Shown here one piece after another: positions 10,976-37,458 of a stretch of 64,000 bases of DNA. Position 1 is the stretch's first letter. Each line of letters starts with the position of its first letter. A program made the position numbers and the translations under genes. The notes beneath the pieces are model-generated. The model worked only from the letters and a program-made list of their open reading frames with translations, did no database searches and had not been told where the DNA came from. The DNA comes from Patescibacteria group bacterium. Its GTDB lineage: Bacteria > Patescibacteriota > CPR2 > UBA1875. The DNA is taken from positions 75,806-139,805 of the forward strand of contig JBGSRK010000011.1 of NCBI GenBank assembly GCA_041737595.1, written 5' to 3'.

Positions 10976-12463
<1,488 letters not shown>

Positions 12464-12502
12464 CTAAAGGAAATTAATGCTATATGCATTCAAATCAAGT
12501 TT

Positions 12503-12577: not shown

Positions 12578-12764
12578 TGTGCATACTTCAACACTATTCA
12601 GTTTTTAAAACACTACCTGCCAGTTGGCAGGTTTTTGTTTAGGAAATGATTGAAATTTTAGAGAAAATAAAGTAAAATTGTCAAGCAAAGTATCTTTGAT
12701 ATTTTTATATTAGTTAAAATATGTTAATTTTAACTCAAGAAAAAGAATGAACTTTTTCTAATGA

Positions 12765-12841
<77 letters not shown>

Positions 12842-12859
12842 AAATAAAAGAGGGATTGT

Positions 12860-13108: not shown

Positions 13109-13187
13109 TTTTTGCTAGTTTTTTTTCAGTTGGAATTAATAGATTCCAACTGCAGAGAAAGCAGAGTAGAAGAGTGAAATCCGCCGT

Positions 13188-13264
13188 GGGCCTGTAGCTC
13201 AGTTGGCTAGAGCGCCTCGCTTGCACCGAGGAGGTCGCAGGTTCGATTCCTGTCAGGTCCACCA
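13188..13264 (+). tRNA. tRNA-Ala(TGC), integration target
   Basis: Cloverleaf, anticodon arm cctcg-ctTGCac-cgagg, encoded CCA. Confidence 0.97.
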
Positions 13265-13266: not shown

Positions 13267-14778
13267 TTACCATCAGAGTCAGAAATATGCTCTTTTATCC
13301 TGAAGGGAAGGGATAAACTGGGTGTTCCAAATCCCGTCGCCAAGGAGTATTCAGGGTTCTGAGTAAAGATCATATTGTGCAAAATGATTTTGGCTTCAGG
13401 ACTGGCTTTCACCCACGTTTCAGCCGGTGTTCCGATGAATCTAAATACTAGCATAAGAGCTTCCTGTATATCAGGGAGTTTTTTAGTTTCTGATTCTTTT
13501 TCGAATTCCCTTAATTGTCTGTCTACTTCCTCAATTTTTGTTTCATATCGGACTCTTAGTCCTTCAGAGCGAGCCTTACGCACAAGATCAACATAGTCCT
13601 CAAGTGCCTGCTCAAGCTCCTTCTTTTCGTTTTCCTTGGCGTCATAGCCAACACTTAAATCCTTAACTTTTTCATCTCAAACCATTGTTGCCATAGCCAT
13701 ACCCATCTCAAGGACTTCTGGCCCAGCATTAATACTTTCAAGAAGTTGTATGTAATCACTCTCTAATTTAATGGGATCGATATTCTTTGGGTTAGCACTA
13801 CATCCTTTATTATTACAGGTATAGTGGGGGTAGTATTTGTATTTGCCTTTACATACACTTCCAGTCATCTTTTTACCACAAACGGCGCAAGTGATAATTC
13901 TTCTCAAGGGAAATTCATAATTATCAGTTAATCGTGTTCTCTTTTCTGGCTTTGCTATTTTTGCCTGAATCTTATAATAGGTTTCTTCAGAGATAATAGC
14001 TTTGTGATGTCCGGGTCTTTTCGTGATTTCCCACTTATCAAACTCAATAATGCCTGCATAAAGCGGCTCTGTTAGTAATCTCTTGATAAGGTCAAAATTC
14101 ACTTGCTTACTATTTCGTCCTATAAGAACATGAAAGTTCTTTGATATTAGATAATTCATGAGATCTGTCTGACTCAATAAGCGGTTTTCTGCAAATGCAT
14201 TTAATCCTTCTGATAGTACACTTGCTATAGACTTAATGGGGACAAGCAGCTTGCCGTGCTCCTTATCTTTCTGATACTCATAACCACAGGGTGCCATAAA
14301 ACACCAATAACCACGCTCAATCCTTGCTTTCATTTTCTGGCAAACTTGTCTTCGGTTTTGCTTGCGTTCAAGCTGATTCTGGGCAGCAAAGATTGTTTCA
14401 ACGAATTCACCCTCAGCACTGTCGTCAAAGTTATAATTCAGACATCGAAGTTTGGCTTCTCTAGCTCTTAGCTCTGACTTTAGTTTTATGTGGACTTCTA
14501 CATCTCTTGCAAATCTCTTTAGGTCATCAAAAATAACAAAATACTTAGTCTGCCAGTTAATGTCTAAAAACCCGATTAATGATTGCATTGCTGGCCGATC
14601 AAATAGCCCCCCTGATATTCCCTCGTCTTTGAACACTTTTTCAACCTGTAGACCAAGTGAGCGGGCATATTCTCTACACCTATGTTCCTGGCTATCCAAA
14701 CCACTGCCTTCTCTGACTTGTTTTTCAGAGGAGACCCGGCAGTATATAACAGCTTTTGTGTAGTTTGCTTCCATTATA

Positions 14779-14991
14779 TTACCTGAAATCGTCTAAATAA
14801 TAATTAATTGATTTATCAATTATCCCAATCAGATAATTTCGGATTTCGGCAACCTTCTCGTCACTTAAATTGAATTTCCCTAAATATTCTTTACACTCCT
14901 CAACACTAATAACCTTAGAGTCGGGAGTTTCGTGAGCACGAAAGGAACCTTGACCAAGACCGTTAACGGCACTACCATGTGAGTTTTTCAT
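14779..14991 (-). CDS. small protein upstream of recombinase (candidate directionality factor)
   Basis: 70 aa, ggaggg RBS; resembles 30932-31114. Confidence 0.6.
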   Translation of the reverse strand: MKNSHGSAVNGLGQGSFRAHETPDSKVISVEECKEYLGKFNLSDEKVAEIRNYLIGIIDKSINYYLDDFR

Positions 14992-15000
14992 ATTCCCTCC

Positions 15001-15056
15001 TATCTGTATATAGATAACTATATACTAATAATATATCTGTATACAGATAGTGTCAA
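15001..15056 (-). promoter_or_regulatory. promoter with two palindromic operators
   Basis: Minus strand TTGACA-17-TATTAT; TATCTGTATACAGATA at 15034-15049 and TATCTGTATATAGATA at 15001-15016. Confidence 0.7.
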
Positions 15057-15167
15057 GAGTAATTTACAAACAAACCGATATATTGTGATTCACCATAAAA
15101 TGATTGACTTTTCTAATAAATTTGACTAACATTACGCTTAAACTAATGGAGGGTAGGAGTATGACTA

Positions 15168-17822
15168 ATGGATCTTCTCCAAGCCCACCTTGCCCCTACA
15201 ACACTAAATGAGTTTCTTGCGGAAGTCAGACCGCTATGGTCTGCTCTGTTGGTTCTCTTGCCTCGTTTGGTTTACTTGTCGATCGGCGTCAGTACCATCT
15301 ACGCCGTTGTTTACTTTCTTTTGAAATACCTTCGGCCACTAGCTACCAAAAGGGAGCCGTTTGTATTTTTAGAGCTGACCTTCCCCTCAAATACCAGCAA
15401 GAGCCCTTATTCGACCGAACAGCTATTTTCCCAGCTTCATGCATTAGCCAAACAAAATAAGTTCTTTAGTAAAAAGGGTTATTCACTAGAAATAGCCGCT
15501 TCAAAAGAACAGGGAATCAGATATATCCTTGGAGCATCAGAAGACGATGCTGAGATTATTGAGAAGGGCCTTCTTTCTTACTTGCCAGGTTTAAAGATTA
15601 AGGAGATTAAAGACTATCTGCCCGCTGATCTTAAGCTCGACAAAAAGAGCAGTTTAATCGAATTCAAGTTGAAAGGCGACATTGCATTTCCTCTTCAGAA
15701 GCATCTCAAGCTTACCGAGCATGACCCAATCTCGTTTCTAACTGGCAATATGACTAAGTTAAACAAAAATGATCTAATGGTTTTTCAGGCGATTATCACT
15801 CCACTAAGGCACCAAAGCCAGGAAGGTAGGCACATCTTCGATGTTAGACATAAGATTTATGGCCAAGAGGCCTTAATCGAGGAACTGTCCCAAAGGCAGT
15901 GGCGAAAACAGTGGTCTGATTCGCCTTTCGTCGTAATAAAATGGATCCTGAAAGCTTTTGGCTTTGTTATGAGTTTTCTTTTAAGCATGGTTCAAGCTTT
16001 TATGGACCATCGGAGTAGTAATATCTCTTATCTCCAGAATAAGCCGTCAGGAGTAAATAAAGAAGCGACCCAGAACCCTTATGAAGAAGAGCTAAAGCAG
16101 GAGGTCAAGGGTAAAGTTGAACAACCGTTATTTGAAACTTCTTTGCGGCTGTTCATTAAAACTAGCGAACATGCTCAAGTAAGGGTAAGGACTGCGGGAT
16201 TTTTAGCCTCTTTTAACTCACTTGGTACCTCGTTTCAGTCCCTAGTTCTAAAAAAGGATAAACGATTACAGTTTCCAACTAGACTCAACCAGTTTTTAGT
16301 AAGACAGGTTTCTCCCGAGGGCAACCCAGTTCTTTCGATCACTGAACTTGCCGACATCTACCATTTCCCATTTACTAGCACTACTAAGACTGAAGACCTT
16401 GTAAAGAGCCACAGCCAAGAATTGCCAGCTCCTTTATCTCTTAAAAATAACGATAACCTTGATGTTGTCTTTGGCATTAATAATTATGGTAATGCAGCTA
16501 GCGATATCGGCCTCACAGATGATGATCGGTCCCGTCACATGTATTTGATTGGACAGACCGGCTCCGGTAAATCAACAATCATTTACCACATGGCATCTGA
16601 CGATATTAGGAAGGGTCGAGGCGTTTGTGTCGTCGATCCTCATGGTGACTTAGCCGAAGGACTTTTAGAAGAAGTTCCCGATTCAAGGATAAACGACGTT
16701 ATCTACCTAAATCCATTTGATATCAAACATCCCATCGGTATTAACCTTTTAGAGCTAACTCCAGGGCTAGAACCAGACGAAGCGGAGCTAGAGAAGGAAA
16801 TTGTTTGTGAAAGCGTGATATCTATCCTACGAAGAATCTTTAGAAAAGATGAGAACACTGATTCACACAGAATTGAATATATCCTAAGAAATGCTATCTA
16901 TACCGCCTATACCGTCCCAGATGCGACCATCTTCACCGTTTACGACCTTTTGAATGAGCCAAGCTTTAGAAAACAAGTAACACGGGACCTTGCTGACCCT
17001 AATCTCAAGAAGTTTTGGAAAAACGAGTTTGGTAAAGCTGGTGACTATCAAGTTGTTAAGATGGCAGGTGGTGTCACGGCTAAAATCGGTAGATTTTTGT
17101 TCTCGCCAATCGCTAAAAGAATCCTAGAGCAAAAACACTCAACGATAGATTTCGACGAGATTGTTGATAATGAAAAGATTCTGCTTTGTAACCTTGCCGA
17201 AGGTAAGCTAGGTGAAGATACGGCTCAGCTTCTAGGCACGGCCATTATCGCGAAGATCCATCTAGCCATGACTAGGCGCGCTCAGATGGACGCGACCAAA
17301 AGAAAACCTTTTTATCTCTTCGTTGATGAGTTCCAAAACTTTGCTACCAGTTCCTTTACTCGATTGCTTTCCGGAGGCAGAAAGTACGGGCTTAGAGTTA
17401 CTATCGCAGAACAATCAACCGCCCAGCAAGATGATCGAAACATTATCAATGTTATTCTCGCTAACGTTGGCACAGTGGTATGCTTTAGGACGGCTAGTCC
17501 ACTAGACGAGGGACTGATGATGCCTCAGTTTGCACCGCTTGTCGATGTAGGTGACATCGCCAATCTACCTCGGCACCATTTCTACATTAGACTAGCCGCT
17601 CTCGAGCCAGAGGATGCCTTTTCTGGTGAAACCCTCCCAATTCCTACAAGGAACGACAAAGAACGAGTAATGAGGGTTATAAAGGCCTCAAGGAAGAACT
17701 ATGCTATTACCTATGAGAAGCCAGTAGCAGAAACAAAGACACCAGAGGTACTAGAGAAAAAACCCAAAGTTAAAAAAGAGAAGGAAAAGGACTTGCCACA
17801 GGAGGTTAATGCACTCAGCTAG
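15168..17822 (+). CDS. type IV secretion coupling protein / VirD4-TraG-like ATPase
   Basis: Walker A GQTGSGKS, VVDPHGDL, Walker B LFVDEFQNF, GRKYGL; N-terminal TM. Confidence 0.85.
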   Translation: MDLLQAHLAPTTLNEFLAEVRPLWSALLVLLPRLVYLSIGVSTIYAVVYFLLKYLRPLATKREPFVFLELTFPSNTSKSPYSTEQLFSQLHALAKQNKFFSKKGYSLEIAASKEQGIRYILGASEDDAEIIEKGLLSYLPGLKIKEIKDYLPADLKLDKKSSLIEFKLKGDIAFPLQKHLKLTEHDPISFLTGNMTKLNKNDLMVFQAIITPLRHQSQEGRHIFDVRHKIYGQEALIEELSQRQWRKQWSDSPFVVIKWILKAFGFVMSFLLSMVQAFMDHRSSNISYLQNKPSGVNKEATQNPYEEELKQEVKGKVEQPLFETSLRLFIKTSEHAQVRVRTAGFLASFNSLGTSFQSLVLKKDKRLQFPTRLNQFLVRQVSPEGNPVLSITELADIYHFPFTSTTKTEDLVKSHSQELPAPLSLKNNDNLDVVFGINNYGNAASDIGLTDDDRSRHMYLIGQTGSGKSTIIYHMASDDIRKGRGVCVVDPHGDLAEGLLEEVPDSRINDVIYLNPFDIKHPIGINLLELTPGLEPDEAELEKEIVCESVISILRRIFRKDENTDSHRIEYILRNAIYTAYTVPDATIFTVYDLLNEPSFRKQVTRDLADPNLKKFWKNEFGKAGDYQVVKMAGGVTAKIGRFLFSPIAKRILEQKHSTIDFDEIVDNEKILLCNLAEGKLGEDTAQLLGTAIIAKIHLAMTRRAQMDATKRKPFYLFVDEFQNFATSSFTRLLSGGRKYGLRVTIAEQSTAQQDDRNIINVILANVGTVVCFRTASPLDEGLMMPQFAPLVDVGDIANLPRHHFYIRLAALEPEDAFSGETLPIPTRNDKERVMRVIKASRKNYAITYEKPVAETKTPEVLEKKPKVKKEKEKDLPQEVNALS

Positions 17823-17952
17823 GTCATGAAAATAGTGTACACTTACGTCCACTAAATAAGCTGATTTTCGTGCTTAAATCTTATAAAACTACTACGTTAA
17901 TATTTATATACTATATATATCTGACTAGCCAACTAACTAACTTACAAAAACT

Positions 17953-18735
17953 ATGAAGCAAACAACAACACAACCTACAATCAAACAAAGACAAATCGAA
18001 ATACTTATCCTACTCTATCGGTTCCGCTATTTAAATAGAGCTCACATTCAAGCAATACTAGAACATAAATCAAGAAGTAAAATACTAGAATGGTTAAATG
18101 AACTAAAAGAAGAGAACTACATTGAGTGTGAGTTTGACAAGAAAATAGCATCGTCTCCTTCTGTATACTCATTAGCCCCCAAGTCTCGCAGTATCTTAAA
18201 AGATAACCCAATGATCAAACCCAGGCTTCTTGGTCATATTTGGAGGGATAAAACATATTCTGATGAGTTCCGCGATCACTGTCTTTTCTTAGGCGATATC
18301 TACCTCTCGCTGATTACACTCACTAACAAGATCGGAGCAGAACTACATTATTACACCAAGCCAGACCTACATGGTATGGGACACTTGATTACGCCTATCC
18401 CTGACGGCTACTTTGCCATTGAAGAAAACAGCGGGCGAACCAAACGATATTTTCTCGAACTCTTTGACGATCTGCCCCCTAGGTTTTTAAGAACTCGTCT
18501 CAATAGCTACTTTAAGTACTATGATTCGGATGAATGGCAATATAATACCGACAAACCGTTTCCTGAAATCATTATTGTCTGTCCGAGTGATAGAATTAAA
18601 AGCCACCTTAGCTATTATATTCAGAGCAAGCTCGAAGAAGATTCAGAAATTGTTTTCCTCCTAACTACCAAAGAGATCATAAAAGTCCATGGATTGAGTA
18701 GTAAAGCATTACAAAAGATTGCACCGAAGGCATGA
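17953..18735 (+). CDS. replication-relaxation family protein (putative relaxase)
   Basis: N-terminal wHTH (LYRFRYLN...I), PDGYF...YFLE nuclease-like motif; adjacent to coupling protein. Confidence 0.7.
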   Translation: MKQTTTQPTIKQRQIEILILLYRFRYLNRAHIQAILEHKSRSKILEWLNELKEENYIECEFDKKIASSPSVYSLAPKSRSILKDNPMIKPRLLGHIWRDKTYSDEFRDHCLFLGDIYLSLITLTNKIGAELHYYTKPDLHGMGHLITPIPDGYFAIEENSGRTKRYFLELFDDLPPRFLRTRLNSYFKYYDSDEWQYNTDKPFPEIIIVCPSDRIKSHLSYYIQSKLEEDSEIVFLLTTKEIIKVHGLSSKALQKIAPKA

Positions 18736-22020: not shown

Positions 22021-22689
22021 ATGAAAATCATAAAGAAGTTACGTTACGTCTGGATGCGACTCAGGTACCGTGTTCATCTACTGGTGAGGCGGATGCACGA
22101 TAGATTATTCGCTAGGAAAAAGCGCTATTACAAGTTTCACCAGAAGCCGTATGCCAAGCATGTAGTACGAGGGCTAAAGGCAATATCGGTAGTACTGATA
22201 CTGGTCGGTGCTATAGGGCTGTTCAATATGTTTAAGCCAGGTAACGCTTGGGCTGCCAGTGTCTACTCTTGGACCCAAACAGACTGGACCTGTGGTGCCG
22301 ATACTAGTAACTTTCCTGTACACCCCACGAACCAAGCAACATGGTGTAAATACTTCTCGAAGGATAGCAGTGTCAGTACTAGTACAGCGGGTACGGTAAC
22401 GCTAAACTCTGGCTCTAGTGCCTTCACCGACAATACTACGGCCGGCTTCAATGCAGGGACCACGAACAATGTTGGGGTAAATGCCAATCAGGCCTTGCTT
22501 TTGAAACCTCTAGGAGCCACGGCCGCAAATGCTTGGGAGTGTGCCAGCGCGTTTGTCTCGGGAGGTGTCTGTTTTAATGCGTGGTTAACGATCACACTGA
22601 AGCGGACAGTTTCACCGATCACGTTCAAAGTCTCACTGAAATTATCTCACTTATGGCTGAGGGACTTTCAGCCGAAGAAAAATCGGTAG
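22021..22689 (+). pseudogene. N-terminal remnant of a secreted/surface protein, fused to a virB4 remnant
   Basis: TM/signal then SWTQTDW; Thr/Ser/Gly-rich composition stops near 22585, where the VirB4 frame begins. Confidence 0.6.
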
Positions 22690-23402
22690 TTGATAGCGCC
22701 ATTATTAAAACTTATCAGAAATCCGGTTTCACCAGAAGGAAGACCACTAAAAAGAACGATAAACCATATCCAAAACTAACCGATCTCTACTCGACCCTAA
22801 AAACAATGAAACAACTGAAACTTTGTCGAAGGCTTGAGAAATACACTAAAGGCTCACTGGCTGAGGTATTTGATACCCAAACCAATATAGAGCTCAATAA
22901 CCGCCTGGTCGTCTTTGACACGAAAGACCTGCCAGAGTCACTCCGTCAGTTAATGCACCTAATTATCGCTCAATATGTTCAAAACCAAGTCAAAAATGAT
23001 ATCTGTAAGCGCATCCTTGTCATAGATGAAGCGTGGTTAATGCTAGAGCACGAAGAAAGCGCTAGATTCATCGCTGGACTAGTTAGAAGGGCAAGAAAGT
23101 ACTATCTAGGAGTCAGTATCATCTCCCAGCAAGCTAATGACTTTCTCTCAAATAGTTATGGGAGAGCGATTGCTTCTCAAAGCGCCCTAAGAATCCTAAT
23201 GCGCCAAGATACCACTACAATCAAGAACGTGGGGATTGAGTTCGGGCTTTCTGAATATGAAGAGAAGTTTCTCCTGACCTGTGAACGAGGAGAGGCTTTA
23301 ATTATTGCCGATCAGCATCATGTAGCGGTTAAGGTAACAGCTTCAGAAGATGAGCATCCATTAATTACAACGGACCCCGCGGAGCTCTCAAGGGCTAAAT
23401 AA
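22581..23402 (+). pseudogene. VirB4-like conjugation ATPase, C-terminal fragment
   Basis: LVIDEAW Walker B, RRARKY, ISQQ; Walker A region absent. Confidence 0.8.
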
Positions 23403-24040
23403 TGGATCCGGCAACTATTAAAGTTATTGCCGCCGCATACTCAATGCGGAAAGAGTTAAAAACAATCTTCTTTACGCTGATTGCTCTTTTAATGATTCCA
23501 GTTGTTGGGGTTATTCTACTTACGCAAGCAGGCATAAACATTATCTCTGACTCTCTTGTTACCCAAGGCAGTAGCCAGACACCCCAGACGGTTAATGTTG
23601 ACATTCATGACCCTAGAACCGGAGCGGTGATCGATAATATCACGGGGCCGGGGATGTGGCCCACTCCGGGAATTGTTACTCTAGAATTTGGACAATCAGA
23701 CCTGCCATATCAAGTTTCCCACACAGGGATTGATATTGCTGATCCAATGGGATAAGTAGGAGCACCGCTTGCAGCCTTTATGGCCGGCAAGGTAACTTAT
23801 GCCGACTCAGACAATTGGGGGTATGGTACTCACGTTATTATTGACCATGGCCACGGTGTTGTTTCGCTATATGGGCATATGGAGTCGCTGAGCGTAACAA
23901 AAGGCCAGCTAGTTGAAGCAGGGACGACAATCGGCCAGGAAGGCTCGACCGGTTGGTCAACTGGACCCCACGTTCATTTTCAAATCACAGTATTTAGTAT
24001 TCCAGTTAACCCGAGGGTATTTCTGGCTGGGAATCCTTAA
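23402..24040 (+). pseudogene. M23 peptidase with in-frame TAA at 23753-23755
   Basis: HTGIDIA motif upstream of the stop; YGH and STGPHVHF in the same frame downstream. Confidence 0.85.
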
Positions 24041-24081
24041 GGGTCTGATATAATCTTTAAGAGCAGGCAGCCACAAAAGTA

Positions 24082-24110
24082 TTGACAAAAGGCAATAAAC
24101 CATGATATAG
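24082..24110 (+). promoter_or_regulatory. promoter of DGR target gene
   Basis: TTGACA-17bp-TATAGT. Confidence 0.6.
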
Positions 24111-24250
24111 TAGCTTGTTATTGTACCTTGTAAATAAATTAGAACTACTCACTATTGGGGTGGCAAAGAGTTTATGAATTTCGTAATTTCTTTGCTGCTC
24201 CAATAAGGGAGCACCGCCGGGAGGCGGATTTGATCGAAAGGGGAGCACCC

Positions 24251-24934
24251 ATGAATGGGAACACCCCGGATCGCAAGTTGCTGAAGCAGATCAATGGGAT
24301 TCAGTCCCGGGTGGGCAGTGCCCTCCTGAACACTGATCTCACCGCAGAGGAGGTCGCGACCTTCCCGGTCAAGAACCTCGGCGAGATTACCGCGGAAGCT
24401 GCCATGTTCATCGTTGCCCGCATCCGTGGTATAGAGCCCGGTCAGCAGGCCAACGCAGTCATCCAGAAGAACCCCGACGGATCTATCAGTGTCGTGAAGA
24501 CCGTTCGCGGTCGCTCCGATGAGGACCTCGTTGCTAGGGTCAAGGAAATGGGCTGGAATTACATCAACCCAGCCATCCGTACTGAGCGTCGCATCAAGGT
24601 CTCAGGCAAGCCCGAGATCGAGACTGGCTCTGAGCGGACTCTGACGATCGAGCAGGTTGTGCCCCAGGATTCGACTTGGAAGTTCAAGAAAGCGGTGGCC
24701 GCTACAAGGCCCACGCCTCTTGGCTTCGACCTCGAGGACATGGTCGACATGCTCGAGCACCGCGACGAACTACTAGCCCTCGGTGTTCGCTGGATCGTTG
24801 CACCTGCTGCGCGTTTCCGTAACGGCAATGGCCACGGGTGCGTCGTCTACGCGAACCTCGAGGACCGCAAGCTCTGCCTGTTTTGGGTCGGGAGCGACTG
24901 GGACGACAACGATTGGTTCGGCTCCAGCAAGTAG
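24251..24934 (+). CDS. DGR target protein (variable region at C-terminus)
   Basis: 3' end is VR; ggggag RBS before ATG 24251; GC-rich. Confidence 0.9.
   Translation: MNGNTPDRKLLKQINGIQSRVGSALLNTDLTAEEVATFPVKNLGEITAEAAMFIVARIRGIEPGQQANAVIQKNPDGSISVVKTVRGRSDEDLVARVKEMGWNYINPAIRTERRIKVSGKPEIETGSERTLTIEQVVPQDSTWKFKKAVAATRPTPLGFDLEDMVDMLEHRDELLALGVRWIVAPAARFRNGNGHGCVVYANLEDRKLCLFWVGSDWDDNDWFGSSK
24805..24930 (+). repeat. DGR variable repeat (VR)
   Basis: 126-bp ungapped match to 25311-25436 with 11 mismatches, all at TR adenines. Confidence 0.95.
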
Positions 24935-24980
24935 CTCTTTGCACCTTGGGGTCTTTGTACTTCTTAGTACTTGGACCCTT

Positions 24981-24997
24981 GTCCCGCGAAGCGGGAC
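24981..24997 (+). promoter_or_regulatory. DGR cis-acting hairpin downstream of VR
   Basis: GTCCCGC-GAA-GCGGGAC, 7-bp stem with GRA loop. Confidence 0.75.
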
Positions 24998-25310
24998 TCG
25001 ACGCACATTTTGCGTCACCATCTCTGCCTCTGGGCCGGTCAATCCGGCTCGGGGGCTTCTTCTTTTGTGGATAAAATGTTAGTCTTAAAGCGGAAAGTAA
25101 ATTAATATGCTTGCGGTCACGGCTACAAGCGATTGAAATCTGGGATAACAAACTCCGGAATGGCGATAGATACGTCTTTTGCTAGTGTGAGCTGTTACTC
25201 TCTAATAGATAAAGATACTTGGTGCAAGATACTGGTGGGAAATCCCCCAGATAAAATACAGCCCAGAGAGAATTCAATGGGCAGTGGAACAGATGGTATT
25301 TTGTGCAATT

Positions 25311-25436
25311 TGCTGCGCGTTTCCGTAACGACAATGGCAACGAGTGCGTCGTCTACGCGAACCTCGAGAACCGCAAGCTCAACCTGAATTGGGTCGAGAA
25401 CGACTGGAACGACAACGATTGGTTCGGCTCCAGCAA
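25311..25436 (+). ncRNA. DGR template repeat (TR)
   Basis: A-rich copy of VR with ten AAC/AAT codons in the target frame. Confidence 0.95.
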
Positions 25437-25442
25437 CTATCT

Positions 25443-25841
25443 TTATTTAAGGGGTGGGGCTAGACAGGTTTTTATCTGTTTGGCCCAGCCACCGAGCATG
25501 CGTCCGACTTCATCTAGTTGCTCCGAGATGGCAGCATATTTTTTGTTATCTAACGCCTTTATTTCCCAAGCAATCCTTAGAAAAAACTTCACAAGGTCAA
25601 GTTTAACCCCTGCTTCAAATACTTGTTCGTATTTTTGATCTCCTCTCAAGTGAGAAGCGTTAAAGGTTAATTCGATTACTATGAGAAGCGCCGAATCGAT
25701 ATTTGCTCCAAGCGAGTACCTTGAGGTTTTAGGAAAGTTAACAAGAAGTTCTTGCCACGATTTGTATGCCTTAACTTGTTTTTGAATTACTGGGAGATCT
25801 ATGCTGGAATTTGTTTTTTCCTTATGAAAATTGCTTTGCAT
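25443..25841 (-). CDS. avd: DGR accessory variability determinant (four-helix bundle)
   Basis: FPKTSRYSLG, LDLVKFFLRIAWE, EVGRMLGGW; lies between TR and RT. Confidence 0.85.
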   Translation of the reverse strand: MQSNFHKEKTNSSIDLPVIQKQVKAYKSWQELLVNFPKTSRYSLGANIDSALLIVIELTFNASHLRGDQKYEQVFEAGVKLDLVKFFLRIAWEIKALDNKKYAAISEQLDEVGRMLGGWAKQIKTCLAPPLK

Positions 25842-26831
25842 GATATTTACTCCAAAGTTATAAGTGTTGATAATCTCCTTGAGGCGTGGAAGGAATTTCG
25901 AGTTCGCAAGTCAAACAAACCGGATGTGCAAGAGTTTGAAGTCAAACTGATAGATGATATTTTAGCATTGCATCGGTCTTTAATGCAAAGTAGATATAAG
26001 CATGGCGGGTACAAAGAATTTGTCATACACGATCCAAAGCAAAGGTTAATTCACAAAGCTATCGTGCGCGACCGGCTACTGCATCACGCTGTTTTTCGAG
26101 TTTTGTATCCATTTTTTGATAAAACATTTATTTGCGATTCATACTCATCAAGAAAAGGCAAAGGCACACATAAGGCCGTTCAGAGATTCAGGGTATTTAT
26201 TAACAAGGTCAGCATTAACAACACTAAAACATGTTGGGTCTTAAAATGTGATATCAAGAAGTTCTTTGCTAGTATTGATCATTCAGTTTTGATTGAAATA
26301 CTCAAAGGTTACATTGATGACGACAAAACCATGCGCTTGCTCACCGAAATTATCTCCAGCTATAACTCCGCGGAAAATATCGGACTACCCCTAGGTAATC
26401 TAACGTCTCAGTTGCTTGTGAATATTTACATGAATGAGTTCGATCAATTTATGAAGCATAAGATGAAGGTAAAATATTATGTCCGTTATGCTGACGATTT
26501 TGTTATTTTGTCTGATGATGAGGATTATTTGCTACAACTTAAACAAACCATCGGGAACTTCTTAGGGATGCATCTAATGCTTGAGCTTCACCCAAAGAAA
26601 ACCGTAATCAGAACCGTTGCTTCAGGTGTTGATTTTCTGGGCTATGTTGTTTTTCCAAAATTTATAGTACTTAGAACGGAGACAAAAAGACGAATGCTAA
26701 AGAAGGTCTCAAAACGGAATATAGACTCTTACCACGGAATCATGAAGCATTGTAACGGATACGGCTTAGAGCAAAAAGTCAGAAAGATTGTGGATAATCA
26801 AGAACTCCAAGAGAGAGGCCCAAAGACGTAA
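25824..26831 (+). CDS. DGR reverse transcriptase
   Basis: DRLLHHA, KCDIKKFFASIDH, GLPLGNLTSQ (DGR-type), RYADD, GVDFLGY; probable start ATG 25824. Confidence 0.95.
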   Translation: MKIALHDIYSKVISVDNLLEAWKEFRVRKSNKPDVQEFEVKLIDDILALHRSLMQSRYKHGGYKEFVIHDPKQRLIHKAIVRDRLLHHAVFRVLYPFFDKTFICDSYSSRKGKGTHKAVQRFRVFINKVSINNTKTCWVLKCDIKKFFASIDHSVLIEILKGYIDDDKTMRLLTEIISSYNSAENIGLPLGNLTSQLLVNIYMNEFDQFMKHKMKVKYYVRYADDFVILSDDEDYLLQLKQTIGNFLGMHLMLELHPKKTVIRTVASGVDFLGYVVFPKFIVLRTETKRRMLKKVSKRNIDSYHGIMKHCNGYGLEQKVRKIVDNQELQERGPKT

Positions 26832-26852
26832 AAGCGGTACCGTGGAACAACG

Positions 26853-27215
26853 TTACTGATCGATTAGGCCTTTAATCTCGTCGTTGATTCTAACCTTCTC
26901 AAGCATGATTGCCGTAAGCAATGACTTTTCTGCTTCAAGGTAGGCCTGTTTCATGGTTACGTCTTTACCGCACTTCTTCTCAAGGAATTCTTGTGCCTCT
27001 TTCGCCATATTTCTAGTAACGCCATTCTTTTCGTACTCTTTCTCGACTGTAAGCCAATATCCTAATCCGTTTCTTAAAGTAGCGTACTTAACCGCATCAG
27101 TTTTTGTTAGTTCCTTGCCGAACTTTACCTTAAACTCGTTTGTCGCTTTTACGATTTCTTCTTCGGTCGGTTTGGGTAATTGAGGTTTTAAATTTGTAAT
27201 TTCTTGTTCTTTCAT
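26853..27215 (-). CDS. hypothetical protein with internal duplication
   Basis: EFKVKFGKELT / EFLEKKCGKDVT repeats. Confidence 0.6.
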   Translation of the reverse strand: MKEQEITNLKPQLPKPTEEEIVKATNEFKVKFGKELTKTDAVKYATLRNGLGYWLTVEKEYEKNGVTRNMAKEAQEFLEKKCGKDVTMKQAYLEAEKSLLTAIMLEKVRINDEIKGLIDQ

Positions 27216-27224
27216 GACTCTTCC

Positions 27225-27857
27225 TTACCTTAATATTACATCCACAATATTAAACACAGCCAGAATACTTTTCAACAGTACTATCATAACTTGAAAAATA
27301 GCCGTAAGCGACCATCTAATAGCAAAAGCTACTGGTTCAATCAGAAATATTTTGATCTTTTGTCTGAAATCTAGTTTTAGATTATGAGGTTGGCTCATGA
27401 GTTTGTATCCGTTTATCAGTTTTTGATTCAGAGTTAAGTTTGACAAAACTTGAGCAGTGAAATCCTCGTCTGCTATCCTTATCATAAGTTCCTTACTTCT
27501 TTTTTGGGAAAGAATGTTGAGACTACCTTCCCAAAGGATTTTACGATCTATCATGGCCACTTTTTCATGAATGGAACCGTCGATATATGTAATGTGAGCT
27601 CCAAGTTTTTTGTAAATCTGAATTGCTGTTCTGATCTCATCTTGAACATATTCTTCATGTTCTAAAACTGGGCGAGTGAATATAAAGACATGGACATTTT
27701 TCCGTTTAAGTTTAAGTAGGGCCCTCCTAAAGAAATCAGCCCTATATTGACTTATAAAGGGACTATAAATAATAACTTCTTTTTCGGCATTTAACATATC
27801 TTTAATCAAAGCGGGGTAAAAAGTAACTTCGTTATATAGGGTGCTTGTTTGATCCAT
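27225..27857 (-). CDS. phospholipase D-like (single HKD) domain protein
   Basis: IYSPFI, HEKVAMID...GSLN. Confidence 0.8.
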   Translation of the reverse strand: MDQTSTLYNEVTFYPALIKDMLNAEKEVIIYSPFISQYRADFFRRALLKLKRKNVHVFIFTRPVLEHEEYVQDEIRTAIQIYKKLGAHITYIDGSIHEKVAMIDRKILWEGSLNILSQKRSKELMIRIADEDFTAQVLSNLTLNQKLINGYKLMSQPHNLKLDFRQKIKIFLIEPVAFAIRWSLTAIFQVMIVLLKSILAVFNIVDVILR

Positions 27858-27908
27858 GTTTTCTCCTTTGTTTATTTAATCTAGAAGTTTTTATTATAAT
27901 TTGATAGA

Positions 27909-28136
27909 ATGATGCTTGTTATGGTAAGTAAAGATGAAAAACCTTTTATAAAACTTGGGAACCAGCTCAAGAAGGCGAGAGAAGACGCTATGCTTAGTCA
28001 ATCCGAGCTAGCGAAGAAATCCGGAGTAAGTCCTAATTACTACGCCGTAGTTGAGCGAGGTGAGGGTAATCTCTCTTATGAAAAACTACAGCGTATTCTA
28101 AAGGTACTTAAAATTAAATCACTTGACGTCAATTAA
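27909..28136 (+). CDS. XRE family HTH regulator
   Basis: LSQSELAKKSGVSPNYYAVVERGE. Confidence 0.9.
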   Translation: MMLVMVSKDEKPFIKLGNQLKKAREDAMLSQSELAKKSGVSPNYYAVVERGEGNLSYEKLQRILKVLKIKSLDVN

Positions 28137-28141
28137 TCGTC

Positions 28142-29758
28142 TTAGCAATCTGGGTTATCTAGAGAATCGTAAATAATCCTTAATTTTGGCTCCCACTCTA
28201 GAGCAATTTTGACAAAGGTGTTCCAATATTTCTGGTTACGGTCCACCATAGAAAATTTATTCAGCCCGATGTCCCTGTTTATCGCATAGATAAGCCCTAA
28301 AGTGAAGGTTCCAAAACCTTCGCTTTTTTGGTAGGAAATTCCGTTTGGAAATACTAACTTTTGGAACCGAGGCTTGATAACATCTGGCATATCTTGCCAT
28401 TGTCTTCCCATATCTGTAATAAACTGTCTGGCATAGTCTAGTGCTGTTTCTAGGTCATATTGTTCAATGCGAGCTTCGCTTAGAGATACCTTGGTAGCAA
28501 CGATTTCATTCTCAACCTCGGCTTTTCTCTCTAGGAATTCTTCCTTATCGTAAGAACCATCTTCCCGCATCTCTTTTACTCGCTTAAGCTTGGCCTTAAG
28601 CCCCTCTAGAGCTTTCTCCACCCTTTCTGCTTCCTGCTCGTAGCTTTTACCCTTTTCTTTCCATACGTCAAGCACAGTGGCTTTGAATAGATTTAGGAAC
28701 TTATCGTTTGGGGTAATTTCTGCAAGCAGCTCAATAAAGTCTTTTTCAAGCTCATCCTTCTTAATTGATTTGCCGTAGAGTGCGCAACTCTTGGTATAGC
28801 AGTGATAGTTTGAATAGATTCCCCCGTGACCACGTGAATTACTTCCCGTTAATGGCTTACCACATTCTGAGCAAAGAACGGTCTTTCTCAGAGAGAATTG
28901 AGGATTGTAACGCTGTCTCTTCGCCTGTACTCTATTCCCGCTTAATATGTAGTTGATTGTATCCATTTCATCTTTTGTTATCATCGGTTTATGTTTTCCA
29001 CGTATCTCCTCACCAGTCCACGGGTTTACGATTATACCTGCATAAAAATGCAAACTTTTATGAAGAATCCGATAGGCAAGGGAGGAAGTGGCTTCTTTAC
29101 CATTAATAGATTTGTAACCAAGACTGTTAAGCTTTCTCGCTATCTCAGATTGAGAATAGATTCCTTTAGCAAATTCCTTCAAAGCAGTTTGTATAATCGG
29201 GAACAGTTCTTTATCAGGTGGTGATGGCATTGTCATCTTTTCACCGTGTTTTTTAGCGTTTAGGCACCTGTATCCTAATGGTGGCTTCCACGGGTATAGT
29301 CCTTGGTTAATCCTTGAACTCATCCCTTCACTACACATCTTTTTCCGAATACCATTATCGTATTCAGCAATTGCGGCTAAAACAGCCTCCATTAGTTTTC
29401 CGCTGGTGCTGTCATCAATCATTGGCTCTTCTACACAGTGAAGGGTTATCCCATAACCAGTTAGAATTTTCTTCACTGCATAGTGGTCTTCTAAATTACG
29501 AGCGAATCTGTTCACGCGTAGAACAGTGAAGACATCAATAGTATCTTTGTTCTTTCTACAAAATTCTAGGGCTTCTAGAAAGGCTTCTCTGTTATTCTTA
29601 TCTAAGCTCTTTGCGCTTTCGCCTTTTTCAATAAAAACTTTTATTACATCAATATTCTTCTGCTTACAATAACGCCTGCAGTAATCCTCTTGGTGCTCTA
29701 GGCTAGTGCCTTTGACTTGTTCGCCAGAGCTGACTCTTGTGTAAATTATACCTTTCAT
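28142..29758 (-). CDS. large serine recombinase
   Basis: YTRVSS, RVNRFARN, PPLGY, CSECG Zn ribbon, coiled coil. Confidence 0.95.
   Translation of the reverse strand: MKGIIYTRVSSGEQVKGTSLEHQEDYCRRYCKQKNIDVIKVFIEKGESAKSLDKNNREAFLEALEFCRKNKDTIDVFTVLRVNRFARNLEDHYAVKKILTGYGITLHCVEEPMIDDSTSGKLMEAVLAAIAEYDNGIRKKMCSEGMSSRINQGLYPWKPPLGYRCLNAKKHGEKMTMPSPPDKELFPIIQTALKEFAKGIYSQSEIARKLNSLGYKSINGKEATSSLAYRILHKSLHFYAGIIVNPWTGEEIRGKHKPMITKDEMDTINYILSGNRVQAKRQRYNPQFSLRKTVLCSECGKPLTGSNSRGHGGIYSNYHCYTKSCALYGKSIKKDELEKDFIELLAEITPNDKFLNLFKATVLDVWKEKGKSYEQEAERVEKALEGLKAKLKRVKEMREDGSYDKEEFLERKAEVENEIVATKVSLSEARIEQYDLETALDYARQFITDMGRQWQDMPDVIKPRFQKLVFPNGISYQKSEGFGTFTLGLIYAINRDIGLNKFSMVDRNQKYWNTFVKIALEWEPKLRIIYDSLDNPDC
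28241..28250 (+). repeat. att core copy 2 (junction of elements 1 and 2)
   Basis: GTCCACCATA (preceded by G, as in the tRNA). Confidence 0.85.
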
Positions 29759-32558: not shown

Positions 32559-33617
32559 ATGACAGTAATGAAAACACCAAGCTTATTTAATAAGATTGAG
32601 GAAAAATCAGGGGATTTTACATTTATTGACCTTTTCGCAGGCATCGGAGGGATTCGGCTTGGCTTTGAACAAAACGGTGGTGAATGTGTTTACTCATCAG
32701 AATGGGATAAATTTGCGCAACTAACATATCAGGCTAATTTTCAAGAATTGCCAAGTGGTGACATTACAAAAATAGACCCGAAAGTAATTCCTCCTTTTGA
32801 TGTGCTAATGGCTGGTTTTCCTTGCCAACCATTCTCTATGGCCGGTAAGAAACGAGGGTTTGAAGATACTCGAGGAACAATGTTCTTTTATATCGCTAAG
32901 ATTATTGAGAAACACAAGCCTAAAGCTATTTTACTTGAGAATGTAAAAAACTTCAGGTCTCACGATAAAGGAAATACATTAAAGACCGTGGTGAGTGTTC
33001 TTGAAGACCTAGGATATTCAATCCAGTACAAGGTTCTAAATGCCAAGGATTTTGGGGTACCTCAGAACAGAGAAAGAATCTATATAGTAGGGTTTAGGGG
33101 CAAGACAAATTTCGAGTTTCCTGAGTCAGTGGGAACAGTGACAAGACTTGGAGATATTCTTGAAAATAATGTTGACTCTAAGTACACCATATCTGATAAA
33201 CTCTGGGCGGGACATCAGAGAAGAAAGGAAATGCATAAAATCAAAGGTAACGGTTTTGGGTACTCCCTTTTTAATGAGGACAGTGTTTATACAAGTACTA
33301 TTTCTGCTAGGTATTATAAGGATGGTTCAGAAATTCTGATTGAACAAAAGGGTAAGAATCCAAGAAAGCTCACCCCAAGAGAGGCTGGGAGGCTACAGGG
33401 GTTCCCAGATAGCTACCTGATACCAGTAAGCGATAATCAGGCTTATAAACAATTCGGTAATAGTGTGGCTGTCCCAGTTATTAATGCAGTTGCTTGTAAT
33501 ATGGTAAAGGGAATGAATGATTTGGCTGAGTCAAAGAATAAAGCCCGTATAAGCGCGGTTGATATAGATGCTATTATGGTTAACAAGGCGGAAGGTGATG
33601 TTTGCTATGAAAATTAA
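32559..33617 (+). CDS. DNA (cytosine-5) methyltransferase
   Basis: FAGIGG, GFPCQ, LLENV, PQNRER, SARYYKDGSEILI, FGNSV. Confidence 0.95.
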   Translation: MTVMKTPSLFNKIEEKSGDFTFIDLFAGIGGIRLGFEQNGGECVYSSEWDKFAQLTYQANFQELPSGDITKIDPKVIPPFDVLMAGFPCQPFSMAGKKRGFEDTRGTMFFYIAKIIEKHKPKAILLENVKNFRSHDKGNTLKTVVSVLEDLGYSIQYKVLNAKDFGVPQNRERIYIVGFRGKTNFEFPESVGTVTRLGDILENNVDSKYTISDKLWAGHQRRKEMHKIKGNGFGYSLFNEDSVYTSTISARYYKDGSEILIEQKGKNPRKLTPREAGRLQGFPDSYLIPVSDNQAYKQFGNSVAVPVINAVACNMVKGMNDLAESKNKARISAVDIDAIMVNKAEGDVCYEN

Positions 33618-37237: not shown

Positions 37238-37458
37238 CTTTTAAATTCAAAATTAAGAGAGAATGTGTTAATATTTATATAGAAAATTGAATATTCGCCT
37301 AACCCTTGTGACTCGTCATAAGGTATGGCATAAAAATCCGTTCAAAGTATAAAGCTCTTCGTCAGAGCACTTTGAACGGTCGTGTCCCGAAAGGGATGTG
37401 GGTGACTTCGGTCATCGCTGGCGGGGAGCTTTTTGATACTCCGTACAAAGGAGAACTT

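What the first reader, a model, noticed from the sequence alone, without database searches (positions are those of the whole stretch)
24251..26831. Complete DGR with adenine-specific mutagenesis carried on a conjugative element
Seen: VR 24805-24930 and TR 25311-25436 differ at 11 of 126 positions, every one an A in TR. RT with LGNLTSQ/YADD, an avd-like gene and a GAA-loop hairpin after VR are all present. VR peptide NGNGHGCVVYANLEDRKLCLFWVGSDWDD versus TR NDNGNECVVYANLENRKLNLNWVENDWND. Established: this is the signature of mutagenic retrohoming. The DGR genes are intact while neighbouring transfer genes are broken, suggesting the host retains the diversifier.
Basis: partly seen in the sequence, partly recalled or inferred. 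Interest (0 to 1): 0.8.

Follow-up and report, generated by a model that had tools for sequence, protein, structure and literature searches.

The report
CPR-type DGR with structured leader RNA
This is a genuine, complete diversity-generating retroelement, a reverse-transcriptase system that rewrites the tip of one small binding protein at adenine-coded positions; it is the ordinary kind found in ultra-small Patescibacteria and lies in the decayed remains of a transfer element, and its less ordinary feature is a conserved folded RNA just ahead of the template.

Summary
VR 24805-24930 and TR 25311-25436 differ at 11 of 126 positions, all of them A in TR (p about 1e-7).

All parts of a DGR are present:
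- a 227-aa target gene with a C-terminal VR;
- an IMH and hairpins after the VR;
- the TR;
- avd, which lies on the minus strand;
- an RT that groups with phage DGR RTs and not with group II intron RTs.

The layout TR-(avd)-RT is "architecture B3" of Wu et al. 2018, the norm in CPR/Patescibacteria. The element is therefore a new member of a known kind. This scan has noted many like it in other genomes.

The target belongs to a rare unnamed family and is modelled as a C-type-lectin-like fold. The surrounding "conjugative element" is a remnant: VirB4 is truncated, the M23 hydrolase has a stop codon, and pilin, VirB6 and VirB3 were not found.

Added here:
- A roughly 215-nt structured RNA lies directly 5' of the TR (25098-25312). 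It has strong covariation, occurs in 27 of 151 sampled phylum genomes, sits beside inverted avd plus RT wherever examined, and is absent from Rfam 15.
- A second, decaying DGR lies elsewhere in the genome.
- The target genes are sharply GC-rich.

Current activity could not be tested because no raw reads were available.

The parts
24082..24111 (+). Promoter-like site of the target gene (TTGACA, 18 nt, TATAGT, with TG before the -10)
   Evidence: 11 of 12 consensus matches. This is a consensus match only.
24251..24934 (+). Target (variable-protein) gene, 227 aa. It is GC-rich and has no Pfam, NCBIfam or PHROG family. Residues about 70-227 are modelled as a C-type-lectin-like fold.
   Evidence: ORF and RBS. 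0 families. Rare family. AF2 pLDDT above 90 for residues 71-227. VIA-align top rows are C-type lectin-like domains, Z 5.6-4.1. GC 0.59 against 0.375 for the RT.
24805..24930 (+). Variable repeat (VR), codons 186-227 of the target
   Evidence: 11 of 126 differences from TR, all A in TR.
24903..24936 (+). IMH-like 3' end of VR: an invariant GC-rich stretch, then the first VR/TR-discriminating bases (GCAAG|TAG in VR against GCAAC|TAT in TR)
   Evidence: Alignment of 3 TRs and 4 VRs. The G-versus-C/A difference after GCAA is kept in all three loci.
24949..25016 (+). Three hairpins after the VR: 24949-24978, 24981-24997 (GAA loop) and 25000-25016
   Evidence: DNA fold -36 kcal/mol, z -7.06, 0 of 200 shuffles as good. 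The GAA-loop hairpin is kept in L003 through a compensatory change, and hairpins stand at the same place in L008 and L007.
25026..25056 (+). Intrinsic-terminator-like hairpin plus T-run that ends the target transcript
   Evidence: 13-pair stem followed by TTCTTCTTTT.
25098..25312 (+). Conserved structured RNA domain directly 5' of the TR (model R1, 215 positions, 58 pairs), presumed 5' part of the template RNA
   Evidence: On 18 instances 92.5% of 1005 cells pair and 52 of 58 pairs show compensatory change, against 39.5-44.8% and 27-31 pairs for the slid controls. No Rfam 15 match.
25311..25436 (+). Template repeat (TR). It has 33 A, none at a third codon position among the 31 in whole codons. 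IMH* runs on to 25442.
25443..25841 (-). avd (accessory variability determinant), 132 aa. It is inverted between TR and RT, and its start overlaps the RT start by 18 bp.
   Evidence: Pfam bAvd 62.7 bits against cut-off 40. NCBIfam DivGenRetAVD 76.7 bits, just under cut-off 80. PHROG 3206.
25824..26831 (+). DGR reverse transcriptase, 335 aa, with LGNLTSQ and YADD
   Evidence: RVT_1 1e-25. PDB 8ub7_A 5.7e-42. PHROG 1423 2.7e-101. Tree.
22581..24040 (+). Context: VirB4 C-terminal fragment (22581-23402) and M23 peptidase pseudogene with one in-frame TAA (23402-24040)
26853..29758 (-). Context conserved with relative L003: orf120 (26853-27215), PLD-like protein (27225-27857) and an HTH gene (27909-28136, + strand). 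A large serine recombinase (28142-29758) follows.
13677..18735 (.). Context, other end of the island beside tRNA-Ala: serine recombinase (13677-14774, -), T4SS coupling protein (15168-17822, +), Replic_Relax protein (17953-18735, +)

Best explanation
The locus is a complete diversity-generating retroelement of the Patescibacteria (CPR) type, laid out as target-VR, terminator, structured RNA, TR, inverted avd, RT.

Inferred mechanism, by homology with the Bordetella phage system:
1. An RNA is made from the + strand. It starts shortly before 25098 and carries the folded 215-nt domain followed by the TR.
2. The RT, with Avd, copies the TR into cDNA and puts random bases opposite template adenines.
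3. The cDNA replaces the VR at the 3' end of the target gene. It is guided by the GC-rich IMH and the hairpins after the VR.

This recodes up to 20 codons, about 1e18 peptides, on the C-terminal strands of a small C-type-lectin-like protein.

Shown here: the parts, their family membership, the adenine-only VR/TR pattern, and the same pattern in relatives. Inferred: the transcript, the role of the 5' RNA domain as the scaffold for RT-Avd, and present-day activity (my estimate about 0.6-0.7).

The cassette lies in a decayed integrative, T4SS-bearing island beside tRNA-Ala.
For: VR/TR pattern
- 11 of 11 mismatches are at TR adenines (p 9.5e-8), all at codon positions 1 or 2.
- TR has 31 A in 20 whole codons and none at a third position, giving about 1e18 peptides.

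Protein parts
- RT: best solved relative 8ub7_A at 5.7e-42, next 1.5e-17. PHROG 1423 at 2.7e-101. In an 11-row tree the four CPR RTs form a 100/100 clade with phage DGR RTs including BPP-1 Brt, and a 100/100 branch separates that group from three group II RTs. The [IL]GxLTSQ motif is shared with Brt.
- Avd.

Layout
[quoted passage not shown] 2018 (PMC5758913, passages read).
- Roux et al. 2021 describe a Patescibacteria-restricted clade 2 whose targets lack recognisable TM or other domains (PMC8144416, passages read).

Relatives with the same target family
- L003: 11 of 11 mismatches at TR A. L008: 24 of 24, and 25 of 25 substitutions.
- L035: 11 of 11, and 16 of 17.
- A relative's contig in run X3, from another study, differs from this VR at 18 listed places, all TR-A positions. 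No difference is listed between 25193 and 25451, which includes the TR.

Sequence elements
- IMH/IMH* difference conserved. Hairpins.
- 5' RNA domain: 18 instances, 92.5% of cells paired, 52 of 58 pairs compensatory. All 11 newly found loci have inverted avd on its 3' side and 10 have the RT; in L048 the RT is cut off by the contig end.

Internal contrast
- The genome's second DGR has 4 non-A mismatches among 19 and a stop in avd.
Against: - No raw reads were on offer. Only assembled contigs could be laid, and these drop rare variants. Within-population VR variation, the direct sign of current activity, is therefore untested.
- The list of X3 differences was truncated (109 rows not shown). 'No difference in TR' rests on the rows listed.
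- No promoter for the TR RNA reached the scan's threshold between 25057 and 25311.
- Avd scores 76.7 bits against the NCBIfam equivalog cut-off of 80.
- The fold assignment rests on modest Z values (5.6 at best) from a 19-sequence alignment, and Foldseek found nothing at E <= 0.001.
- The RT tree has no retron or other RT classes.
- The covariation alignment was fitted to the model, which favours the structure.
Confidence: 0.92

Rival explanations
1. The cassette is a structurally intact but no longer active DGR. On this view the VR/TR pattern records past homing in an ancestor, and the element is drifting along with the decaying island around it.
For: - The neighbours are decayed: VirB4 is truncated and M23 carries a stop.
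- A second DGR in the genome is visibly decaying.
- The contig of the possible source run X1 is identical to the window, with no variant listed.
Against: - All four parts are open and conserved: RT 72% and Avd 80% identical to L003.
- There is not one non-A mismatch in 126 nt, whereas the decaying DGR2 has 4 in 120.
- The relative in X3 differs in VR at 18 listed places, all TR-A positions, while no TR difference is listed.
- Contigs cannot show rare variants, so the identity with X1 says little.
Confidence: 0.3
2. The two repeats are an ordinary segmental duplication that diverged by chance or by a general mutational bias, next to an unrelated reverse transcriptase such as a group II intron or retron RT.
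For: NCBIfam's best-scoring model for the RT is the group II intron RT/maturase (150.3 bits). NCBIfam returned no DGR RT model among its matches.
Against: - The chance that all 11 differences fall on TR adenines is 9.5e-8.
- The same one-directional pattern recurs in five further VR/TR pairs of relatives.
- The group II score is half its cut-off of 300, and the retron St85 score is 66.7 against 235.
- The tree and the SQ motif place the RT with DGR RTs.
- Avd is adjacent.
Confidence: 0.01
3. The folded RNA ahead of the TR is not part of the template RNA. It would instead be an independent regulatory element, for example a leader that controls transcription into TR and RT, or an sRNA that merely travels with the cassette.
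For: - No transcript data exist.
- In the Bordetella system the essential RNA element (Sp) lies 3' of the TR, not 5' (PMC7826257, passages read).
Against: - The domain ends 5 nt before the TR in the window.
- It keeps the same position and strand in all 18 instances.
- No conserved structure was found 3' of the TR in five loci. The 5' domain is therefore the only conserved RNA structure found next to the template.
Confidence: 0.25

Closest known systems
CPR/Patescibacteria DGRs: architecture B3, TR-(avd)-RT (Wu et al. 2018, PMC5758913), and DGR clade 2 (Roux et al. 2021, PMC8144416)
   Same: The gene order, with avd inverted between TR and RT. A cellular, small-genome Patescibacteria host. A target without recognisable TM or Pfam domain. 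A C-terminal VR with Asn (AAC/AAT) codons. Passages read.
   Different: Nothing in kind. This target family is rare and unnamed: 21 representatives in 1.84 billion proteins and 5 of 401 phylum genomes. I found no description in those papers' passages of the 5' structured RNA or of the GC-rich targets, but I did not read their supplements or the whole text.
Bordetella phage BPP-1 DGR (mtd-avd-TR-brt)
   Same: The RT is its closest solved relative and shares the [IL]GxLTSQ motif. Both have Avd, adenine-specific VR/TR differences, a GC-rich IMH and a hairpin after the VR.
   Different: - Here avd is on the opposite strand and lies between TR and RT.
- In BPP-1 the functional RNA element (the 140-nt Sp, with priming from Sp A56) lies 3' of the TR (PMC7826257). 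Here the conserved structure lies 5' of the TR and none was found 3' of it.
- The target is a 227-aa cellular protein, not a phage tail fibre.
Legionella pneumophila DGR on an integrative and conjugative element (as summarised in the introduction of Wu et al. 2018)
   Same: A cellular DGR carried within an integrative element that bears T4SS genes.
   Different: - The Legionella target LdtA is an exported lipoprotein. This target shows no signal peptide or hydrophobic N-terminus by eye; no predictor was run.
- Here the T4SS genes are of the monoderm (CD1110/PrgI) type, and the element is degraded.
RT-1 to RT-19 RNA motifs near reverse transcriptase genes (Weinberg et al. 2017, PMC5737381)
   Same: Structured RNAs found beside bacterial RT genes, which the authors suggested may belong to retrons or DGRs (passage read).
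   Different: No Rfam 15 family matched 24050-25600, even at E <= 1, other than three weak unrelated rows. I did not compare with motif files that may not be in Rfam.

Membership tests
Diversity-generating retroelement (DGR) | TR/VR pair whose differences fall at adenines of the TR | tested here: met
   11 of 11 differences in 126 nt, p 9.5e-8.
Diversity-generating retroelement (DGR) | Reverse transcriptase of the DGR clade, with [I/L]GxxxSQ in place of the QGxxxSP of group II intron RTs (motif rule recalled) | tested here: met
   The RT has LGNLTSQ, BPP-1 Brt has IGSLTSQ and one group II row has QGGPLSP. The clade with phage DGR RTs is split from group II RTs by a 100/100 branch (11 rows, no retron rows). 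PDB best hit 8ub7_A at 5.7e-42.
Diversity-generating retroelement (DGR) | VR at the 3' end of a protein-coding target gene, in the same orientation as the TR | tested here: met
   The VR covers codons 186-227 of a 227-codon ORF. Both repeats lie on the + strand.
Diversity-generating retroelement (DGR) | Accessory protein Avd | tested here: met
   Pfam bAvd 62.7 bits (cut-off 40). PHROG 'Avd protein of DGR' 9.8e-22. NCBIfam equivalog 76.7 bits, just under its cut-off of 80.
Diversity-generating retroelement (DGR) | IMH at the VR end that differs from IMH* at the TR end, with a GC-rich hairpin downstream of the VR only | tested here: met
   Conserved VR/TR difference right after GCAA in three loci. 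Hairpins 24949-25016, conserved with a compensatory change in L003. This is sequence-level evidence only.
Diversity-generating retroelement (DGR) | VR displayed on a C-type lectin (or Ig) fold | tested here: inconclusive
   The AF2 model is confident for residues 71-227. By my reading of the titles, about 40 of the top 50 VIA-align rows are C-type lectin-like domains, plus TvpA (2y3c_A, Z 4.6) and FGE-like folds. The best Z is only 5.6, and Foldseek found nothing at E <= 0.001.
Diversity-generating retroelement (DGR) | Ongoing mutagenic homing (VR heterogeneity in a population) | not testable with these tools
   Only assembled contigs of the runs were available.
CPR-type DGR, architecture B3 | Order TR, avd on the reverse strand, RT | tested here: met
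   TR 25311-25436 (+), avd 25443-25841 (-), RT 25824-26831 (+). The definition comes from PMC5758913.
Integrative and conjugative element | Integrase or recombinase at an end of the island | tested here: met
   Large serine recombinases at 13677-14774 and 28142-29758. The left one lies beside tRNA-Ala 13188-13264. The island's exact ends were not determined.
Integrative and conjugative element | Relaxase and coupling protein | tested here: inconclusive
   The coupling protein has TrwB/TraG-D_C domains, and a Replic_Relax protein scores 7.5e-11. No MOB typing was run.
Integrative and conjugative element | Complete mating-pair-formation set (VirB4 ATPase, VirB6-like, VirB3-like, pilin, cell-wall hydrolase) | tested here: not met
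   VirB4 lacks residues 1-312 of the L003 protein, and M23 has an in-frame stop. The pilin, TrbL-like and PrgI proteins of L003 gave no tblastn match in the window. A separate full-length VirB4 lies on contig C108.

The most novel reading that the evidence does not exclude
The 215-nt folded RNA directly 5' of the TR is an undescribed, phylum-wide RNA component of CPR-type DGRs. On this reading it is the docking and priming scaffold for RT-Avd, taking the role that the 3' spacer (Sp) plays in the Bordetella phage element. The most abundant DGR clade in nature would then assemble its template RNP in a different geometry from the model system. The RNA's existence and its linkage to the cassette are well supported here. 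That it is undescribed, and that it has this role, are the uncertain parts.
Probability: 0.35. Interest if true: 0.6.

Novelty: new member of a known kind. Interest (0 to 1): 0.4.

Why it matters
The DGR itself adds one more, well-documented example of the CPR-type system, with a rare target family and a setting inside a decayed T4SS island.

The useful outputs are practical:
- A calibrated covariance model of the RNA that precedes the template in these elements. It found DGR cores in 27 of 151 sampled Patescibacteria genomes, and all 11 that were checked were confirmed.
- A concrete, testable question for DGR mechanism: how the template RNP assembles and primes when avd is inverted and there is no 3' spacer.
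- An internal pair of one intact and one decaying DGR in a single genome, which shows what loss of activity looks like.
- A repeated, unexplained observation that the whole target gene stays at 55-62% GC inside 35-40% GC cassettes.

Tried and rejected
- Remote VRs. A 146-nt TR query against the whole 1.09-Mb genome found only the TR and the VR.
- Read-level VR polymorphism. The look-up of sequencing runs listed 6 runs, all kept as contigs and none on record as RNA, so there is no RNA holder listed. On laying 4 of the 6 (X1, X2, X3, X5), the X1 contig is identical to the window. X2 has gaps at 24879-25000 and 25300-25386 at depth about 5. These could be VR heterogeneity or simply low cover, and I draw nothing from them.
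- Foldseek against the PDB: no match at E <= 0.001.
- Protein atlas: the nearest clusters are unnamed Minisyncoccota proteins, which is uninformative.
- PDB sequence search: nothing for the target (best E 0.1) or for Avd (0 hits).
- Viral contigs: no relative of the target.
- Empty-site search. purF (38813-40213), used as a right-hand anchor, was found in only 2 of the 20 relatives searched, so no empty site could be defined. The island's borders remain open.
- A T4SS-specific role for the target. The same target family with its DGR stands away from any VirB4, M23 or PLD gene in L008 and L035, so the link is not general.
- A-depletion as the cause of the high GC. Both A and T are low in the non-VR part of the gene, so this is rejected.
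- Structure 3' of the TR: none is conserved in five loci.
- Retron rows for the tree. The control-genome search returned no loci, so the tree has none.
- Literature. I found no description of the 5' RNA with the terms. '8UB7' occurs in no held paper. Paul et al. 2017 is not held, and it may bear on the RNA and on target classes.
Full report
**Observation.**
The repeat finder gives a single long direct repeat in 23000-28000: 24805-24936 and 25311-25442, 132 nt at 90% identity. Base by base, 24805-24930 and 25311-25436 differ at 11 of 126 positions. Every one is A in the downstream copy (7 G, 3 T and 1 C in the upstream copy). The downstream copy has 33 A among its 126 bases, so the chance that all 11 fall on A is 9.5e-8. 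All 11 lie at codon positions 1 or 2 of the ORF that holds the upstream copy. Two more mismatches, at 24931 and 24934, are not at A and mark where the repeats part.

**The parts.**
- *Target gene.* It runs from 24251 to 24934 (227 aa), behind a near-consensus promoter-like site at 24082-24111 (11 of 12 matches). Three hairpins and a terminator-like stem with a T-run (25026-25056) follow it. This 151-nt stretch folds at -36 kcal/mol as DNA, z -7.06.
- *avd.* It occupies 25443-25841 on the minus strand. It matches Pfam bAvd at 62.7 bits (cut-off 40), PHROG 'Avd protein of DGR' at 9.8e-22 and NCBIfam DivGenRetAVD at 76.7 bits, just under its cut-off of 80.
- *RT.* It occupies 25824-26831 on the plus strand, so the two genes diverge and their starts overlap by 18 bp.
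- *RT relatives.* Its best solved relative is 8ub7_A (5.7e-42, 147.5 bits); the next is a group II intron RT at 1.5e-17. That 8ub7 is the Bordetella phage bRT is my recollection. However, Brt as fetched from the BPP-1 record has the same length (328 aa) and the same N-terminal sequence as the aligned chain.
- *RT family models.* No NCBIfam RT model reached its cut-off: group II 150.3 against 300, retron St85 66.7 against 235.
- *RT tree.* The tree has 11 rows: this RT, three CPR relatives, four phage DGR RTs and three plasmid group II intron RTs. The CPR RTs form a 100/100 clade. It sits with the phage DGR RTs on one side of a 100/100 branch, with the group II RTs on the other. No retron RT was available for the tree.

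**Known layout.**
Wu et al. 2018 define 'TR-(avd)-RT' as architecture B3. [quoted passage not shown] Roux et al. 2021 describe a DGR clade 2 restricted to Patescibacteria, whose targets typically lack recognisable transmembrane or other domains (PMC8144416; passages read).

The host fits. The genome is 1.09 Mb at 97% estimated completeness. It lies in the same order, as grouped by the genome search, as a MAG titled Candidatus Howlettbacteria. The inverted avd, which looks odd against the Bordetella model, is therefore the norm for this group.

**Target protein.**
- It has no Pfam, NCBIfam, PHROG or PADLOC family and no PDB sequence relative (best E 0.1).
- It is rare. There are 4 relatives among 5.8 billion clusters, 21 proteins at E <= 0.001 among 1.84 billion representatives, itself included, and matches in 5 of 401 sampled genomes of the phylum, own genome included.
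- In alignments the relatives vary exactly where the TR has adenines.
- An AlphaFold2 model from 19 sequences has mean pLDDT 83.3, with every 10-residue block from residue 71 on at 90 or more; residues 1-70 are poorly defined helices.
- Foldseek found nothing at E <= 0.001.
- The Foldseek-independent search put C-type lectin-like domains in about 40 of its top 50 rows (my reading of the titles). The best is 7y5n_A at Z 5.6, rmsd 3.5, 101 aligned. The rows include the Treponema DGR variable protein TvpA (2y3c_A, Z 4.6, rmsd 4.7, 128 aligned) and FGE-like folds. No row reached Z 8.

I read this as a compact C-type-lectin-like variable protein, with the fold call supported but not proven. By eye there is no signal peptide or hydrophobic N-terminus; no predictor was run.

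The TR has 31 adenines in 20 whole codons, 11 of them AAC or AAT, and none at a third codon position. Only one of these codons can mutate to a stop. The possible repertoire is about 1e18 peptides.

**Relatives and signs of activity.**
- L003, a 19.8-kb metagenome contig, carries the same block in the same order: VirB4, M23, target, TR, inverted avd, RT, orf123, PLD, HTH. Its proteins are 54-87% identical to the window's, and its 11 VR/TR mismatches are all at TR adenines.
- L008 and L035 have two tandem targets each. Their mismatch counts are 24 of 24, 25 of 25 substitutions, 11 of 11 and 16 of 17 at TR adenines.
- The VR/TR boundary difference (G in VR, C or A in TR, right after GCAA) is kept in the three loci aligned.
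- The GAA-loop hairpin is kept in L003 through a compensatory change.
- Only assembled contigs of public runs could be laid. The possible source run is identical to the window. A diverged relative in a run of another study differs from this VR at 18 listed places, all of them TR-adenine positions. No difference is listed from 25193 to 25451, which includes the TR, but 109 rows of that table were not shown.

This argues for homing in the recent history of the lineage. It does not show activity today.

**The setting.**
- *Island genes.* From tRNA-Ala (13188-13264) onward lie a serine recombinase, a T4SS coupling protein, a Replic_Relax protein, DUF3768, a Fic protein, the VirB4 fragment, the broken M23 gene and the DGR. 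Beyond the DGR come orf120, a PLD-like protein, an HTH gene and a second serine recombinase.
- *Decay.* L003 shows what the intact version holds: VirB2-type pilin, TrbL-like, PrgI, VirB4 of 588 aa and M23 of 205 aa. Of 13 L003 proteins, 7 have a match in the window and 6 do not (KAP NTPase, orf352, pilin, TrbL-like, PrgI, orf203). VirB4 matches only from residue 313, so its Walker A region is missing. This is a remnant of an integrative T4SS element, not a working conjugative element.
- *Literature and a second VirB4.* A 2025 survey reports that T4SS clusters of the monoderm type are widespread and mostly relaxase-less in Patescibacteria (PMC12102498; passages read). This genome has a separate full-length VirB4 on contig C108.
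- *No general T4SS link.* The target family and its DGR also occur away from any T4SS gene. I see no general functional link between the two.

**A second DGR in the same genome.**
tblastn found another RT (50% identical), avd and PLD gene at the start of contig C54. C54 overlaps the start of contig C21 by 141 identical bases. Read across the junction, the order is M23 fragment, a 312-aa GC-rich target of a different family, VR, TR, inverted avd, RT, PLD, and then housekeeping genes.

This copy looks to be decaying. Of its 19 VR/TR mismatches in 120 nt, 15 are at TR adenines and 4 are not. Its avd also has an in-frame TAA at codon 9 with no later start nearby. Its RT reads YCDD, as does the RT of Bacteroides phage p00, whose record annotates DGR repeats, so that alone is not a defect.

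This copy is a useful contrast with the clean pattern of the window's DGR. It also weakens the idea that the host always keeps the diversifier.

**A conserved RNA ahead of the template.**
- *Conservation.* The roughly 250 nt between the target's terminator and the TR are non-coding, yet have 71% mean column identity across four loci. RNAalifold predicts a multi-helix structure in which 16 of 62 pairs are compensatory.
- *Model and local hits.* A covariance model (R1; 215 positions, 58 pairs; window 25098-25312) was built from the four. It also finds the region before the TR of the genome's second DGR (39.4 bits) and two further genomes of the order.
- *Phylum sample.* In an even sample of the phylum it matches 27 of 151 genomes at E <= 0.001, own genome included. 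All 11 new loci fetched have inverted avd on the 3' side of the match and 10 have the RT, in the orientation seen here; in L048 the contig end cuts the RT off.
- *Covariation.* On 18 instances, 92.5% of 1005 cells form standard pairs and 52 of 58 pairs show changes on both sides. With the partner slid by 1-3 columns, 39.5-44.8% of cells pair and 27-31 pairs change on both sides. None of 500 shuffles reached the observed values. The alignment was fitted to the model, which favours the structure, but the margin is large.
- *3' side.* No conserved structure was found 3' of the TR in five loci (-1.7 kcal/mol, 0 compensatory pairs).
- *Databases.* Rfam 15 has no match at gathering scores, nor at E <= 1 apart from three weak unrelated rows.
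- *Bordetella comparison.* In the Bordetella system the essential RNA element, Sp, lies 3' of the TR and supplies the priming site (PMC7826257; passages read).

My inference is that in CPR-type DGRs the 5' domain is part of the template RNA and is the likely RT-Avd scaffold.

My literature searches found no description of it. Weinberg et al. 2017 list RT-associated motifs that I could compare only through Rfam, and Paul et al. 2017 is not held. Earlier notes of this scan report the same RNA before the TR in other genomes, so this is not the first sighting in the scan. I tested it independently here.

**GC-rich targets.**
- The target gene is 59% GC (non-VR part 0.587, GC3 0.73), against 37.5% for the RT and 39.6% for avd. 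The rise is bounded by the gene, and both A and T are low.
- The same holds in L003 (0.62 against 0.35), in L008 (0.55 against 0.39-0.40) and in the second DGR's target.
- On the long contigs of the genome only a handful of 600-nt windows reach 54% GC, and this gene is one of them. The bin also holds many short high-GC contigs that look like contamination.
- Earlier scan notes record GC-rich DGR targets and other GC-rich small genes in this and other CPR genomes.

I have no tested explanation.

**Verdict.**
This is a genuine, complete DGR of the standard CPR type, and so a new member of a known kind. It sits in a decayed T4SS island. The conserved 5' RNA domain and the GC-rich targets are the points worth carrying forward.

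Noticed in passing
G000 contigs C21:1-2000 (reverse strand) and C54:1-2100, joined by a 141-nt identical overlap: A second DGR of the same layout (M23 fragment, 312-aa GC-rich target of another family, VR, TR, inverted avd, RT with YCDD, PLD). It shows 15 A and 4 non-A mismatches among 19, and an in-frame stop at codon 9 of avd. It is probably decaying.
   Followed up: partly
window 24251-24934; L003 9785-10477; L008 2479-3793: Whole target genes hold 55-62% GC (GC3 0.65-0.77) inside cassettes of 35-40% GC. Both A and T are low, and the boundaries are sharp at the gene ends. This is unexplained.
   Followed up: partly
window 24112-24250: The target's 140-nt leader shares a box (TTTGCTGCTCCAA.AGGG) and a following GC hairpin with the leaders in L008 and L035, but not L003. 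Earlier scan notes mention a conserved leader on CPR DGR targets. It was not tested for structure here.
   Followed up: no
window 10976-13264 and 46135-49844: 16S rRNA, tRNA-Ile and tRNA-Ala are separated from 23S and 5S by about 33 kb. That stretch holds the island, a Dcm methylase with an EcoRII-C-like gene (32559-34632) and housekeeping genes. The 23S match spans 3396 nt for a 2925-position model, so it carries insertions.
   Followed up: no
window 37296-37416: LOOT RNA (Rfam RF03000), 90.3 bits, just after a DUF4238 gene.
   Followed up: no
window 22021-22689: This ORF has a basic N-terminus, one hydrophobic stretch and a Thr/Asn/Gly-rich region. It runs into the VirB4 fragment and has no counterpart in L003, so it probably marks the rearrangement that removed the pilin-to-VirB4 genes.
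   Followed up: no
window 25517-25545: A terminator-like hairpin plus T-run on the + strand lies 80 nt after the TR, inside antisense avd. Its T-run comes from the conserved Avd 'KKY' codons, so its meaning as an end of the TR RNA is open.
   Followed up: no
G000, many contigs of 1.5-13 kb (e.g. C127, C34, C5): Dozens of short contigs in the bin have 55-70% GC against 31-37% for the long contigs. This is likely binning contamination.
   Followed up: no
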